Shown here one piece after another: positions 9,617-63,045 of a DNA stretch of 64,000 bases (its first letter is position 1; every line of letters starts with the position of its first letter). The notes under the pieces were generated by a model. The model saw only the letters and a list, made by a program, of their open reading frames with translations, had not been told where the DNA came from and did not search any database. The stretch is taken from NCBI GenBank assembly GCA_964347045.1, contig CAYFXC010000001.1, positions 1 to 64,000 of the forward strand, read 5' to 3'. The translations under genes were made by a program, and so were the position numbers. Origin of the DNA: an uncultured archaeon. Lineage in GTDB: Archaea; Asgardarchaeota; Hermodarchaeia; Hermodarchaeales; Hermodarchaeaceae.

Positions 9617-9785
9617 GGGCTCGTAGCTTAGCCAGTCACACACGAATATCCGGTGTGGGCAAAGTCAGAGCATCGGGCTTTTATAGGAGCCACCAATTAG
9701 GGACTGTACGAAACTTGTACAGCAAGTTCTTCTTGCTTCTAAAGAAACCCGAGGGTCGCGGGTTCAAGTCCCGCCGAGCCCGCCA
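9617..9785 (+). tRNA. tRNA-Lys(UUU) with two introns (18/19: 9636-9663; 37/38: 9684-9746)
   Basis: Cloverleaf GGGCTCG...CGAGCCC-G-CCA is restored after removing two BHB-flanked inserts; anticodon TTT at 9680-9682. Confidence 0.92.
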
Positions 9786-9833: not shown

Positions 9834-9998
9834 TGGTGCGGGGGCTGGGAATTTCCGCCATCTCTGATTACAAGAGCCGGCTTTTGAACCCAGGAACGCC
9901 TACACGACAGGGTTCTGAGCCCTGCGCCTTTAGCCCTTCAAAAGTGCCACTTGGAGTACCAAGAGCTTCGAAGATTGACCAAGCTTGGCTACCCCCGC
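9834..9998 (-). tRNA. tRNA-Leu(CAG) with two non-canonical introns (D-loop region: 9930-9974; 59/60: 9851-9882)
   Basis: GCGGGGG...CCCCCGC-A-CCA, long variable arm, CAG anticodon, BHB-like motifs at both inserts. Confidence 0.92.
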
Positions 9999-40744: not shown

Positions 40745-41584
40745 ATGCACTTGGAATTAATACAAAATGAACCTGCCCTCCTTCTTCGTGAGGGATCACG
40801 ACGTGTTTTAGTTGTAGGGGATTTACATATAGGTTACGAACGAATCCTTTTCAAACAGGATTATTATTCAACCAATCTTACTATTCGGATTATCACGGAG
40901 TTTGAAAAACTCGTTGAGAAGTTAGAACCCACTGAAATCATCATCTTGGGTGATTTGAAACACTCTATCCAAGATTTTTCTAAGCCGGAGTTCCATCAAA
41001 TTGCACAACTATTACAACACTTACAGCAACGTGCAAAGGTCACCATTATCCCAGGAAACCATGATGCAGATTTGGAATTAGTTACACCTGACGACACAAA
41101 AATCAGTTCATCAGCAGGTCTTCGCCTTCAGTTCAAATCAAAACAGATATATCTTCTACACGGGCACGCCCACCCATCCTCTGATATTCTCTCTTGTGAC
41201 AGCATGATTATGGGTCACATTCATCCAACCATCTCTATCTCAAAATTTAAACAAAAATCATCTCTACATCGAGTCTGGGTAAAGACAAAGTGGAGGTCTA
41301 CAATTGGCGAGACTACGAAGAGATGGTCAGGTGAAGGACAATTCCAAAACGAAAAAGAAGTGATTCAGAGACTTCTTAATATGAGAATTCTAATTATTCC
41401 AGCGTACCTTAGCTTACTCCGAGGACATGTTCTTAATATTGATTCGTCGAATACTCATCTAGGAACTCCATTATTTCGCCATCTCTCACTAGATGATGCC
41501 GAAATTATAATGCTTGATCACACGCCTTTAGGAACACTTGAAAAATTAAAGGAAAAAAGACACCCCGATAAAGAAACATTTTAA
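40745..41584 (+). CDS. Metallophosphoesterase (Lhr-associated type)
   Basis: GDLHIG, GDLKH, GNHD, HGH, GHIHP. Confidence 0.88.
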   Translation: MHLELIQNEPALLLREGSRRVLVVGDLHIGYERILFKQDYYSTNLTIRIITEFEKLVEKLEPTEIIILGDLKHSIQDFSKPEFHQIAQLLQHLQQRAKVTIIPGNHDADLELVTPDDTKISSSAGLRLQFKSKQIYLLHGHAHPSSDILSCDSMIMGHIHPTISISKFKQKSSLHRVWVKTKWRSTIGETTKRWSGEGQFQNEKEVIQRLLNMRILIIPAYLSLLRGHVLNIDSSNTHLGTPLFRHLSLDDAEIIMLDHTPLGTLEKLKEKRHPDKETF

Positions 41585-41612
41585 GAGCCTATTTACTGTA
41601 TCCTGCACCGTT

Positions 41613-41812
41613 GGGTCGATGGTCTAGATTCTCAGGAAACTAGCTTTCCTGGTCTAGTTTGGTATTGGACAAAGGATAAGTTCCTTCGAACCACCAAAGA
41701 TTCGCGGTTCGGGACCATGCGAACTATAAGTCTCATGGCGGGAATCCGTGAGATCCGGGGTTCAAAACCAGCCTGTATACGCCGGTTGGGGAAACTCCCC
41801 GTCGGCCCACCA
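41613..41812 (+). tRNA. tRNA-Pro(CGG) with four introns (~41630-41659, 41666-41698, 41714-41744, 41767-41795)
   Basis: 200-nt locus collapses to a 77-nt cloverleaf GGGTCGA...TCGGCCC-A-CCA; each insert is flanked by a BHB-like motif. Confidence 0.85.
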
Positions 41813-41910
41813 TTCACTTCCTAATAATTCTTAATGTGGAAAATTCGTCAGTTACCGTAATTTTAGTAAAATTGCGTAAAGCACTTAAAGTATAGTGAGT
41901 TGCCAGTAGT

Positions 41911-42648
41911 ATGCCAGTGGCGGCGCAAGTTAGACAACGTCTTGCTCGACGCATAGCAGGGGAAATCTCATTATCTGAGATCCCCGGTCGTATCATGCGC
42001 AAATGGCGCGAGATGTTTCACATTTCTCAAATCCAATTAGCAGAGGCTTTGAGAGTATCACCTTCTGTAATCAGTGATTATGAAAGTGGACGCCGTCAAT
42101 CGCCTGGCACAAAAACCATCAAACGTTTTGTTGAAACCATAATTACACTAGACGAACAAAATGGCGGCCAGGTGGTAAATGCTTTCCAACGCATGATGGG
42201 TGTAGAGATACCATCCAGTATAATTCTAGATATCAGCGAATTTAGTCATGGGGTTACTATCAAAGAAATCATTGAAAGCTTACGAGCACAAATTATCGTA
42301 GGCGAGGAACTCCTCGATCGCGAGGTTTTAGGGTATCTTATCGTAGATATCTCAGAAGCGTTAGATATTCTATCTAGTACCGGTTTTCTTAAACTATTTG
42401 AAGCAACTGAAGACCGCGTTCTAATTTTAGTTAATGTATCAACGGGACGATCACCACTTGTAGCCATGAAAGGTGAAATTAAACCAAGTCTTTTTGTACT
42501 ACATGGAGTAGAACAAATCGATTATCTTGCAATTGAACTTGCCAAACGAGAACAAGTGCCACTAGCAGTCTCCCGAATCGAATCAGTTGCGGGAATGTTG
42601 CGACGCTTACAAACTCTTCGCAAAAACTCCATCAATGAAAAACAATGA
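41911..42648 (+). CDS. Archaeal XRE-type HTH transcriptional regulator
   Basis: IAGEI.LS..PG..MRKWRE, SPSVISDYESGRR, VSTGRSP. Confidence 0.85.
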   Translation: MPVAAQVRQRLARRIAGEISLSEIPGRIMRKWREMFHISQIQLAEALRVSPSVISDYESGRRQSPGTKTIKRFVETIITLDEQNGGQVVNAFQRMMGVEIPSSIILDISEFSHGVTIKEIIESLRAQIIVGEELLDREVLGYLIVDISEALDILSSTGFLKLFEATEDRVLILVNVSTGRSPLVAMKGEIKPSLFVLHGVEQIDYLAIELAKREQVPLAVSRIESVAGMLRRLQTLRKNSINEKQ

Positions 42649-47916: not shown

Positions 47917-48021
47917 GCGGCTTTGATCTAGTGGTTATGATCCAGGCCTCCCACGCCTGAGACCCGGGTTCGAAAGTTTGACACAACTACTTTGTCACCG
48001 AAAATCCCGGAAGCCGCACCA
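47917..48021 (+). tRNA. tRNA-Gly(CCC) with T-loop intron (59/60: 47975-48004)
   Basis: GCGGCTT...AAGCCGC-A-CCA; BHB with TTCG/CGAA central helix. Confidence 0.92.
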
Positions 48022-62948: not shown

Positions 62949-63045
62949 GCGGAGTTGGCGGAGCGGTAACGCGCTGGACTCGAGATGAACCGGGTCATCC
63001 AGTGACCTTTTGGTCGCAAGGGTTCAAATCCCTTACTCCGCGCCA
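62949..63045 (+). tRNA. tRNA-Ser(CGA) with a 12-nt 37/38 intron (62985-62996)
   Basis: Long variable arm, G73, CGA anticodon, CTCG/CGGG BHB helix. Confidence 0.9.

What the first reader, a model, noticed from the sequence alone, without database searches (positions are those of the whole stretch)
41613..41812. tRNA-Pro(CGG) interrupted by four introns, with a ~6-nt exon
Seen: removing 30, 33, 31 and 29 nt (D-loop ~17/17a, 22/23, 37/38, 59/60) gives a normal 77-nt tRNA. Central BHB helices are CTAG/CTAG, TGGT/ACCA, TTCG/CGGG and TTCA/GGAA. The first intron's register is ambiguous because of a TGGTCTAG direct repeat. Known: multi-intron tRNAs occur in Thermoproteales; the highest count I recall is three. 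Inference: needs a relaxed-specificity splicing endonuclease and probably ordered splicing.
Basis: partly seen in the sequence, partly recalled or inferred. Interest (0 to 1): 0.8.

Follow-up and report, generated by a model that had tools for sequence, protein, structure and literature searches.

The report
Four-intron proline tRNA gene, Asgard archaeon
This is a real proline tRNA gene of a Hermodarchaeota-type Asgard archaeon, cut into five pieces (one only 6 bases long) by four short enzyme-spliced introns. It is conserved across a genus, but four-intron Asgard tRNA genes have been tabulated since 2024, so it is a good example and not a first.

Summary
Removing 41630-41659, 41666-41698, 41714-41744 and 41767-41795 (30, 33, 31 and 29 nt) from 41613-41812 leaves a 77-nt tRNA-Pro(CGG) with encoded CCA, which ARAGORN accepts. 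Exon 2 is TGGTAT (6 nt).

Each intron sits in a bulge-helix-bulge (BHB) motif. Across 19 orthologues from two genera the exons are essentially invariant and the introns diverge. The intron helices keep pairing through compensatory changes. Relatives carry 0, 1, 3 or 4 of these introns, so the intron-free gene serves as a template.

My own BHB-based finder recovers the same coordinates. It gives no accepted tRNA on a reversed-genome decoy.

The genome encodes a catalytic EndA subunit with the broad-specificity loop lysine, a non-catalytic EndA paralogue and RtcB.

The host is an Asgard archaeon, not a member of Thermoproteales. "Three is the maximum" is outdated: four-intron genes are tabulated in Valentin-Alvarado 2024, and a 2026 preprint reports up to five. 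Obligatory ordered splicing is not required by the fold.

Here the gene is an outlier: the other 32 recovered tRNA genes have at most 2 introns.

This scan has already reported orthologues of this gene in other Hermodarchaeota genomes. Verdict: real, a new member of a known kind.

The parts
41573..41585 (+). Archaeal promoter: BRE-like GAAA followed by the TATA box (GAAACATTTTAAG), ending about 27 nt before the mature 5' end
   Evidence: Conserved upstream of the gene in 15 same-genus orthologues and, as GGAAAGAYTTAAG/GGAAAGATTTATAG, in the sister genus. Function is inferred from position and conservation.
41613..41629 (+). Exon 1 (17 nt): acceptor 5' strand, U8 G9, D-stem 5' strand, D-loop A14 G15 A16 U17
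   Evidence: Invariant apart from U4/C4 and A7/G7.
41630..41659 (+). Intron 1 (30 nt, 17/17a). BHB: H is CTAG 41624-27 with CTAG 41654-57, bulges AU|U and UU|U, h' is 41632-39 with 41645-52 after one C.U mismatch (HBh' type)
   Evidence: H 4/4, h' 8 after one skip. (helix 3 is 100% paired; helix 4 has 6 of 8 pairs with compensatory change). Absent in G001, G008, G012, G016, G017 and G018. Register is uncertain by about 2 nt.
41660..41665 (+). Exon 2, the micro-exon UGGUAU (6 nt): U17a G18 G19 U20 A21 U22
   Evidence: TGGTAT is invariant or nearly so in all 19 orthologues. It is contiguous with its neighbours in the intron-free genes of the sister genus and in Pro(GGG) of this genome.
41666..41698 (+). 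Intron 2 (33 nt, 22/23). BHB: H is UGGU 41660-63 with ACCA 41693-96, bulges AU|U and AA|G, h' is GG 41667-68 with CC 41691-92, plus an inner hairpin 41672-76 with 41682-86
   Evidence: H is 100% paired with G-C/G-U and U-A/U-G switches. The GG/CC pairs change to A-U in other species (compensatory). It is the only solution of the finder.
41699..41713 (+). Exon 3 (15 nt): G23-U25, U26, anticodon stem 5' strand, U32 U33 C34 G35 G36 G37
   Evidence: Invariant in 19 orthologues.
41714..41744 (+). Intron 3 (31 nt, canonical 37/38). Strict hBHBh': H is UUCG with CGGG, bulges GG|A and AA|U, h' is CCAUG with CAUGG, h is the anticodon stem
   Evidence: H 4, h' 5, h 6. (3 of 5 h' pairs compensatory). A homologous intron is present in G017 and G018 of the sister genus.
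41745..41766 (+). Exon 4 (22 nt): U38, anticodon stem 3' strand, variable loop AGAUC, T-stem 5' strand, U54-A59
   Evidence: Invariant except one C/U. U38 is confirmed by the intron-free orthologue.
41767..41795 (+). Intron 4 (29 nt, 59/60). Relaxed BHB: H is UUC(A) with (G)GAA (3 bp plus A.G), bulges AA|A and AC|U, h' is CCAGCC with GGUUGG, h is the T-stem
   Evidence: H 3, h' 6, h 5. (4 of 6 h' pairs compensatory). The same position is used in five other tRNA genes of this genome.
41796..41812 (+). Exon 5 (17 nt): U60, T-stem 3' strand, acceptor 3' strand, discriminator A73, encoded CCA
   Evidence: CCA is encoded in nearly all tRNA genes of the genome.

Best explanation
41613-41812 (+) is the single functional tRNA-Pro(CGG) gene of a Hermodarchaeota-type Asgard archaeon. 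It is transcribed from its own BRE/TATA promoter as a precursor of about 200 nt.

Four short introns (17/17a, 22/23, 37/38, 59/60) each fold with the neighbouring exon into a bulge-helix-bulge motif. The heterotetrameric (alpha-beta)2 splicing endonuclease cuts two nucleotides 3' of the 4-bp central helix on each strand. RtcB joins the exons. RNase P trims the 5' leader.

The product is a 77-nt tRNA identical in sequence to the mature tRNA of sister-genus species that have 0 or 1 intron.

Shown here: anatomy, conservation, covariation, uniqueness of the gene, and presence of the enzymes.

Inferred: transcription, actual cleavage sites and ligation.
For: Spliced product and boundaries:
- The spliced product is a canonical tRNA-Pro(CGG).
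- My BHB-jump finder independently returns exactly these four introns. Introns 2-4 are unique solutions.
- The spliced D-arm CTAGATTGGTATGAT occurs contiguously in Pro(GGG) of this genome.

Comparison of 19 orthologues:
- Exons are invariant and introns diverge.
- Alignment gaps in orthologues with 0, 1 or 3 introns coincide with the predicted introns.
- The intron-free orthologue scores 55.9 bits with Rfam tRNA.
- Pair counts: 94.9% paired, against 39-51% when partners are slid. 17 pairs have changes on both sides, concentrated in the intron h' helices. No shuffle out of 500 reaches this.

Genome context:
- The decoy genome gave 0 accepted tRNAs, against 33 in the real genome.
- No second Pro(CGG) exists. 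The ARAGORN call on C59 is spurious.
- The promoter is conserved.

Splicing enzymes:
- EndA alpha has Y124, H132 and K163, and its K41 aligns with A. pernix K44.
- EndA beta has the catalytic His replaced by Thr.
- Both carry the Pfam EndA domains. RtcB is present.
- Kaneta 2018 (PMC5829648) links this loop lysine to cleavage of non-canonical introns and places the loop in Asgard.
Against: - There is no RNA evidence of any kind. Splicing, cut sites and aminoacylation are inferred.
- The unconstrained MFE fold does not show the BHBs of introns 1 and 2. A competing hairpin forms at 41652-41670.
- Intron 4 has a mismatched central helix.
- Intron 1 has no outer helix and has a mismatch next to its 5' bulge.
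- Pro(UGG) could in principle read CCG, so the gene need not be essential.
- The three same-genus species without intron 1 have C16, not the A16 predicted for the spliced product. Intron loss therefore does not confirm the intron 1 register.
- The assembly is 89% complete.
Confidence: 0.92

Rival explanations
1. The gene and its four introns are as described, but intron 1 is excised in another register, for example 41627-41656 or 41628-41657 within the TGGTCTAG repeat. That would give U16 instead of A16 and an 8-nt second exon.
For: The TGGTCTAG direct repeat makes nine registers give the same product. An alternative central helix GGUC/GGUC (41621-24 with 41651-54) pairs 4/4 in this genome. 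Intron-1-free relatives have a pyrimidine at position 16 (AGCTTGG, AGCACGG).
Against: By my reading of the alignment, GGUC/GGNC drops to 3/4 in 7 of the 12 same-genus species that carry intron 1. It also has no adjacent inner helix. CTAG/CTAG is 4/4 Watson-Crick in all 13 carriers. The AT after the first CTAG is invariant, whereas the dinucleotide after the second CTAG varies (TT, TA, CC, CA), as expected for intron sequence. The same rule gives the more usual D-loop in Val(TAC). Two sister-genus species without this intron have AGATTGG.
Confidence: 0.2
2. Splicing is obligatorily ordered: one D-loop intron can only be recognised after the other has been removed and the exons ligated.
For: The BHBs of introns 1 and 2 abut: U41660 is the third bulge nucleotide of intron 1 and also the first pair of the central helix of intron 2. 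If both introns were cut before ligation, a free 6-nt exon would be held by almost nothing (inference). Ordered removal is documented for a three-intron tRNA in C. merolae (PMC3728597).
Against: Each BHB is self-contained and survives removal of the other. A fold with all four central helices enforced is only 7.3 kcal/mol above the MFE. Enforcing the helix of intron 1 or of intron 2 alone costs 2.3 kcal/mol, and that fold shows both helices together. Either order of stepwise cutting and ligation keeps the micro-exon tethered.
Confidence: 0.3
3. The locus is a decaying tRNA pseudogene that has accumulated insertions and is no longer processed into tRNA.
For: Standard finders do not see it. Pro(UGG) may cover CCG codons (general knowledge).
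Against: The exons are invariant across two genera while the introns diverge to unalignable loops. BHB helices are kept by compensatory changes. The promoter is conserved. It is the only Pro(CGG) gene.
Confidence: 0.03

Closest known systems
Multi-intron tRNA genes of Asgard archaea: Atabeyarchaeia and Freyarchaeia (Valentin-Alvarado et al. 2024, PMC11291895) and the motif-free census of Goswami et al. (bioRxiv 10.64898/2026.10.13.758758)
   Same: An Asgard host. Several BHB introns per gene, many at non-canonical D-arm and T-arm positions. D-arm introns are missed by standard annotators. The published table has four intron columns, and the preprint states up to five per gene. Two EndA paralogues are present.
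   Different: This lineage carries Hermodarchaeota labels and is not named in the main text of either paper. Its genome-wide load is modest: about 0.85 introns per recovered gene, against 2.0-2.4 in the focal families. This gene is therefore an outlier in its own genome. The 6-nt exon and the 0/1/3/4-intron series are specific to this gene.
Multiple-intron tRNA genes of Thermoproteales (Sugahara et al. 2008, as cited in PMC11291895; Pyrobaculum, Thermofilum)
   Same: Protein-spliced BHB introns at 37/38 and at non-canonical sites, an (alpha-beta)2 EndA with the specific loop, and relaxed HBh' motifs.
   Different: A different phylum. From my own knowledge the maximum usually quoted there is three. 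According to the preprint, intron sequences there recur between tRNA types (28% in shared families). In this genome, introns at the same position share only the bases forced by the exon.
Three-intron nuclear tRNA genes of the red alga Cyanidioschyzon merolae (Soma et al. 2013, PMC3728597)
   Same: Introns in the D-arm, at 37/38 and in the T-loop of one gene. BHB-like junctions. Intermediates were shown by RT-PCR, with a preferred order.
   Different: A eukaryotic nucleus and enzyme, a maximum of three introns, and experimental validation that is lacking here.

Membership tests
Archaeal bulge-helix-bulge (protein-spliced) tRNA introns | A 4-bp central helix between the four exon nucleotides before the 5' bulge and the four intron nucleotides before the 3' bulge, with a 3-nt bulge on each strand | tested here: met
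   H is 4/4 for introns 1-3 and 3/4 for intron 4 (relaxed class); these helices are 100, 100, 95.6 and 76.7% paired across orthologues.
Archaeal bulge-helix-bulge (protein-spliced) tRNA introns | At least one flanking helix (h of exon or h' of intron) of 2 or more pairs | tested here: met
   h' is 8 pairs after one mismatch for intron 1, then 2, 5 and 6 for introns 2-4. h is 6 for intron 3 and 5 for intron 4. Introns 1 and 2 are HBh' type.
Archaeal bulge-helix-bulge (protein-spliced) tRNA introns | Removal at the bulge sites restores a canonical cloverleaf | tested here: met
   a 77-nt tRNA-Pro(CGG). It matches the mature sequence of sister-genus genes with 0 or 1 intron.
Archaeal bulge-helix-bulge (protein-spliced) tRNA introns | Actual cleavage by EndA and ligation by RtcB | not testable with these tools
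   Only the genes are shown. No RNA data are available.
(alpha-beta)2 EndA with the L1 (Crenarchaea-specific) loop | Two paralogous subunits: one with the catalytic Tyr-His-Lys triad and one without a complete triad | tested here: met
   alpha (C7, 186 aa) has Y124, H132 and K163 aligned to A. pernix Y125, H133 and K164; beta (C1, 199 aa) has Thr at the His position in the alignment to M. jannaschii EndA.
(alpha-beta)2 EndA with the L1 (Crenarchaea-specific) loop | An N-terminal loop insert with the conserved lysine that confers broad substrate range | tested here: met
   query IRKPK aligns with A. pernix VEKPR (K41 to K44). The role of the lysine is taken from PMC5829648.
(alpha-beta)2 EndA with the L1 (Crenarchaea-specific) loop | Heterotetramer assembly and activity on relaxed BHBs | not tested
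   No complex prediction or assay was run.
Heavily interrupted tRNA gene sets of Asgard archaea (Jordiarchaeia, Atabeyarchaeia) | Genome-wide burden of about 2 or more intervening sequences per tRNA gene | tested here: not met
   33 recovered genes carry 28 introns (14 with none, 12 with one, 6 with two, 1 with four). This matches the 0.91 per gene that the preprint gives for other Asgard families. About a quarter of the expected tRNA set was not recovered by this finder.
Heavily interrupted tRNA gene sets of Asgard archaea (Jordiarchaeia, Atabeyarchaeia) | Asgard host, with non-canonical D-arm and T-arm introns missed by standard tools | tested here: met
   orthologue records are titled Hermodarchaeota or Ca. 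Hermodarchaeum yapensis; the gene is missed by ARAGORN and by Rfam.

The most novel reading that the evidence does not exclude
The two abutting D-loop BHBs around the 6-nt exon may force strictly stepwise cutting and ligation, with only one EndA tetramer able to dock at a time. Separately, closely related species share an identical mature tRNA yet carry 0, 1, 3 or 4 introns, including at least one nested loss of intron 1. This may record frequent, precise intron loss and gain in Hermodarchaeia. If so, this one gene would be a natural system for catching archaeal tRNA intron turnover, whose mechanism the 2026 census left open.
Probability: 0.3. Interest if true: 0.6.

Novelty: new member of a known kind. 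Interest (0 to 1): 0.42.

Why it matters
Standard tRNA finders miss this gene completely, so an automated annotation would report the genome as lacking tRNA-Pro(CGG).

It shows that four-intron tRNA genes occur outside the Asgard families already described as intron-rich. It also shows that an exon of only six nucleotides can be maintained for a whole genus.

The graded series of relatives with 0, 1, 3 or 4 introns and the same mature tRNA gives clean material for three questions:
- how archaeal tRNA introns are gained and lost;
- how a broad-specificity EndA handles adjacent motifs;
- how intron-aware tRNA annotators can be benchmarked.

Tried and rejected
Rejected boundary models:
1. My first exon model cut at the ends of the CTAG repeat and before AAGAT. 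It gave a valid tRNA but the wrong D-arm (AGTTTGGTAAGAT). Comparison with relatives corrected it.
2. Pairing TGGT with the first ACCA (41690-93) gives an 80-nt product with a 12-nt D-loop. I rejected it because the intron-free genes read TGGTATGATT and because GG/CC (AGT/ACT in G014) covaries as h' only in the other register.
3. For intron 1, an alternative BHB (AGAU/GUCU plus CAGGAAA/UUUCCUG) would leave a 13-nt D-loop. Rejected.

Tool results that led nowhere or misled:
4. Rfam at E<=10 on 41400-42000 found no tRNA signal.
5. ARAGORN's Pro(cgg) on contig C59, with a 1444-nt intron, is spurious. Its 5' half lies in a coding region and the acceptor stem has two mismatches. The real gene there is a class II tRNA.
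6. An exact 45-mer search of genome contigs found nothing because the own genome is left out of that collection. Five bacterial hits of the second pattern were chance matches.

Problems with my own finder:
7. The first strict BHB rules missed intron 2. The rule was relaxed to h' of 2 or more pairs.
8. A relaxed run allowing introns up to 125 nt produced obvious false positives, one of which ARAGORN accepted. That run also had a prefilter bug. One run timed out. The final run used introns up to 75 nt with a decoy control.
9. The finder recovers 33 genes. ARAGORN sees about nine more, none longer than 146 nt. His, Lys(CTT), Glu(CTC), Leu(CAA) and the further Met genes were not found, so "most interrupted" applies only to the recovered set.

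Limits on the evolutionary reading:
10. The class holds only these 19 genomes. Introns 2 and 4 therefore could not be polarised with an outgroup.

Not available: tRNAscan-SE and SPLITSX.

Full report
**What is there**

The 200 nt at 41613-41812 (+) start with GGGTCGA and end with TCGGCCC-A-CCA, a 7-bp acceptor stem separated by far too much sequence. ARAGORN finds four other tRNAs in the window but not this one. Rfam's tRNA model finds nothing here, either at the gathering threshold or at E<=10.

Removing four segments of 30, 33, 31 and 29 nt gives a 77-nt sequence that ARAGORN calls tRNA-Pro(CGG). It has a 9-nt D-loop, a UUCGGGU anticodon loop, a UUCAAAU T-loop, discriminator A73 and an encoded CCA.

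**Exact boundaries**

My first cut was corrected by comparison with relatives. The refined parts are:

| Part | Coordinates | Length | Position |
|---|---|---|---|
| Exon 1 | 41613-41629 | 17 | |
| Intron 1 | 41630-41659 | 30 | 17/17a |
| Exon 2 (TGGTAT) | 41660-41665 | 6 | |
| Intron 2 | 41666-41698 | 33 | 22/23 |
| Exon 3 | 41699-41713 | 15 | |
| Intron 3 | 41714-41744 | 31 | 37/38 |
| Exon 4 | 41745-41766 | 22 | |
| Intron 4 | 41767-41795 | 29 | 59/60 |
| Exon 5 | 41796-41812 | 17 | |

Each intron obeys the BHB rule, with a cut two nucleotides 3' of a 4-bp helix on each strand:
- Intron 1: CTAG/CTAG, bulges AT|T and TT|T.
- Intron 2: TGGT with the second ACCA of ACCACCA, bulges AT|T and AA|G, followed by GG/CC as the inner helix.
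- Intron 3: TTCG/CGGG, bulges GG|A and AA|T. This is a strict hBHBh' motif stacked on the anticodon stem.
- Intron 4: TTC(A)/(G)GAA, bulges AA|A and AC|T, stacked on the T-stem, with an A.G mismatch.

I wrote a finder that walks a cloverleaf grammar through the DNA and may jump only across BHB-compatible segments. It returns exactly these coordinates. Introns 2, 3 and 4 are unique solutions, and this intron 1 gives the standard D-loop.

**Comparative evidence**

The locus is present in all 14 other species of the genus and in all 4 of the sister genus. These are all the genomes of the class that are held. Public titles of these contigs read Candidatus Hermodarchaeota or Ca. Hermodarchaeum yapensis.

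In the 19-sequence alignment the exons are invariant apart from U4/C4, A7/G7, positions 16-17a and 22 in the D-arm, and one T-stem pair that changes on both sides. The introns diverge strongly.

The intron content varies between species:

| Introns present | Genomes |
|---|---|
| All four | this genome and 11 other same-genus species |
| Introns 2, 3 and 4 (no intron 1) | G001, G008, G012 |
| Intron 3 only | G017, G018 (sister genus) |
| Intron 1 only | G015 (sister genus) |
| None (plain 77-nt gene) | G016 (sister genus) |

The intron-free G016 gene scores 55.9 bits with Rfam tRNA. The alignment gaps coincide with my intron calls.

Counting the named structure on the alignment gives 94.9% of cells paired, against 39-51% when partners are slid by 1-3 columns. 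17 pairs change on both sides, against 8.6 +/- 1.8 in shuffles, and none of 500 shuffles reaches the observed value. Compensatory pairs lie almost entirely in the intron inner helices: 6 of 8 pairs for intron 1, 2 of 2 for GG/CC of intron 2, 3 of 5 for intron 3 and 4 of 6 for intron 4. That is the signature of selection on the splicing motifs themselves.

**Register of intron 1**

The TGGTCTAG repeat makes several registers equivalent, and one further register changes position 16. I favour 41630-41659 for four reasons:
- CTAG/CTAG is Watson-Crick in all 13 carriers.
- The AT after the first CTAG is invariant, while the dinucleotide after the second CTAG varies (TT, TA, CC, CA).
- The resulting D-arm CTAGATTGGTATGAT is found contiguously in Pro(GGG) of this genome and in G017 and G018.
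- The same rule gives the more ordinary D-loop in Val(TAC).

One caveat remains. The three same-genus species without intron 1 read AGCTTGG, so an error of up to 2 nt cannot be excluded without RNA data.

**Chance and uniqueness**

On the real genome the finder yields 33 products that ARAGORN accepts. On the reversed genome it yields none. A looser version allowing 125-nt introns did give false positives, so the comparative evidence is the stronger argument.

BLAST of the spliced tRNA and of the intron-free orthologue against the whole assembly finds no second Pro(CGG) gene. ARAGORN's Pro(cgg) on contig C59, with a 1444-nt intron, is an artefact. Pro(UGG) has no intron and Pro(GGG) has two. 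The assembly is 89% complete.

**Context in this genome**

Among the 33 recovered genes, 14 have no intron, 12 have one, 6 have two and none has three. Only Pro(CGG) has four. That is about 0.85 introns per gene. The further genes that only ARAGORN sees are at most 146 nt long.

Each of the four positions is used elsewhere in the genome:
- 17/17a in Pro(GGG) and Val(TAC);
- 22/23 in Leu(CAG) and Phe(GAA);
- 37/38 in ten genes;
- 59/60 in Leu(CAG), Gly(CCC), Gly(UCC), Arg(CCU) and Leu(UAG).

Introns at the same position share only the bases that must pair with the exon. I therefore see no evidence of copying between genes.

**Machinery**

Two EndA genes are present.
- The 186-aa protein on C7 is closest to the catalytic subunit of Aeropyrum pernix EndA (E 6e-45). 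It keeps the Tyr-His-Lys triad, and its K41 aligns with K44 of the Crenarchaea-specific (L1) loop.
- The 199-aa protein on C1 carries the same Pfam domains but has Thr at the catalytic His position.

This is the (alpha-beta)2 type. Kaneta et al. 2018 tie that type, through the loop lysine, to cleavage of non-canonical and relaxed BHBs, and they report it in Asgard archaea. RtcB is present and RNase P RNA lies in the window.

A BRE/TATA element (GAAACATTTTAAG, 41573-41585) sits about 27 nt upstream and is conserved in both genera. A T-rich tract follows the CCA in most orthologues.

**Order of splicing**

The unconstrained MFE (-80.7 kcal/mol, z = -4.3) shows the inner hairpins but prefers a competing hairpin over the central helices of introns 1 and 2. 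Enforcing the helix of intron 1 or of intron 2 alone costs 2.3 kcal/mol, and the resulting fold shows both helices. Enforcing all four costs 7.3 kcal/mol. The four motifs are therefore mutually compatible and no order is imposed by structure.

The motifs of introns 1 and 2 do abut at U41660. A 6-nt exon freed on both sides would be hard to retain. Stepwise cutting and ligation, in either order, is therefore a sensible inference, not a result.

**History**

A tree of the two flanking proteins, rooted on the sister genus, places G008 and G001 (no intron 1) inside a clade of four-intron species with 100% support. G012 (no intron 1) falls at the base of the genus.

Intron 1 of G015 and intron 3 of G017 and G018 resemble their counterparts in this genus in sequence. 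Both introns therefore probably predate the split of the two genera. Intron 1 was then lost at least once within this genus, and introns were also lost in the sister genus. Introns 2 and 4 cannot be polarised without an outgroup.

**Comparison with the literature**

Valentin-Alvarado et al. 2024 found introns in 92-95% of tRNA genes of Atabeyarchaeia and Freyarchaeia, with more than half of the genes carrying several. Their table has four intron columns. It lists one gene with four tRNAscan-predicted introns, which the authors' own count in the same table reduces to three.

Goswami et al. (bioRxiv, October 2026) report:
- up to five intervening sequences per gene;
- systematic loss of D-arm introns by tRNAscan-SE;
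- 0.91 introns per gene in non-focal Asgard families;
- two EndA paralogues in most genomes.

Neither main text mentions Hermodarchaeia.

This scan has also already reported orthologous four- and three-intron Pro(CGG) genes in other Hermodarchaeota genomes, and a four-intron tRNA-Asn with a 4-nt exon in a Loki-type genome.

**Verdict**

The gene is a well-supported new member of a known kind. It is notable for three things: the 6-nt exon, being the only gene with more than two introns among those recovered from this genome, and the natural 0/1/3/4-intron series.

Noticed in passing
window 41843-41895: A roughly 50-nt element (TTCGTCAGTTACCGTAATTTT..GTAAAATTGCGTAAAGCACTTAAAG) lies between the tRNA and the downstream HTH_3 (XRE-type) regulator gene at 41911-42648. 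It is conserved in most same-genus orthologues, and its CGTCAG.TAACGTA core is conserved in the sister genus. It is probably that gene's promoter or operator, or a small RNA.
   Followed up: partly
window 9617-9782 (+), 9837-9998 (-), 47917-48018 (+), 62949-63045 (+): Other interrupted tRNA genes lie in the window: Lys(UUU) with introns in the D-loop and at 37/38 (28 and 63 nt), Leu(CAG) with introns at 22/23 and 59/60, Gly(CCC) with one at 59/60, and Ser(CGA) with one intron. ARAGORN and Rfam miss the first three.
   Followed up: partly
own genome C1:236282-240981 (outside the window): The gene for the non-catalytic EndA subunit (C1:239498-240097, minus strand) sits inside a cluster of eight tRNA genes: Pro(UGG), Thr(UGU), Leu(UAA), Thr(GGU), Arg(CCU), Tyr, Asp and one more. 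It lies directly beside the two-intron Arg(CCU) gene at 239361-239478.
   Followed up: no
own genome C5:86486-86627 (outside the window): The 58-nt intron of tRNA-Trp contains C-box-like GATGACGA and D-box-like CTGA motifs. It resembles the C/D-box guide RNA known from archaeal tRNA-Trp introns (the comparison is from my own knowledge).
   Followed up: no
own genome, several contigs: ARAGORN run with introns allowed mislabels several non-canonically interrupted genes. Val(UAC) is called Leu(taa), Ile(UAU) is called Asp(atc), Ser(GGA) is called Pro(tgg), and Phe(GAA) is called Arg(gcg). This happens because it forces the intron into the anticodon loop.
   Followed up: partly
L011, L012, L015 (G008, G001, G012): Two separate lineages that lack intron 1 both read AGCTTGG in the D-loop (C16). 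Neither possible spliced product of their four-intron relatives gives this (A16 or U16). Either a parallel substitution occurred or the loss mechanism is imprecise.
   Followed up: partly
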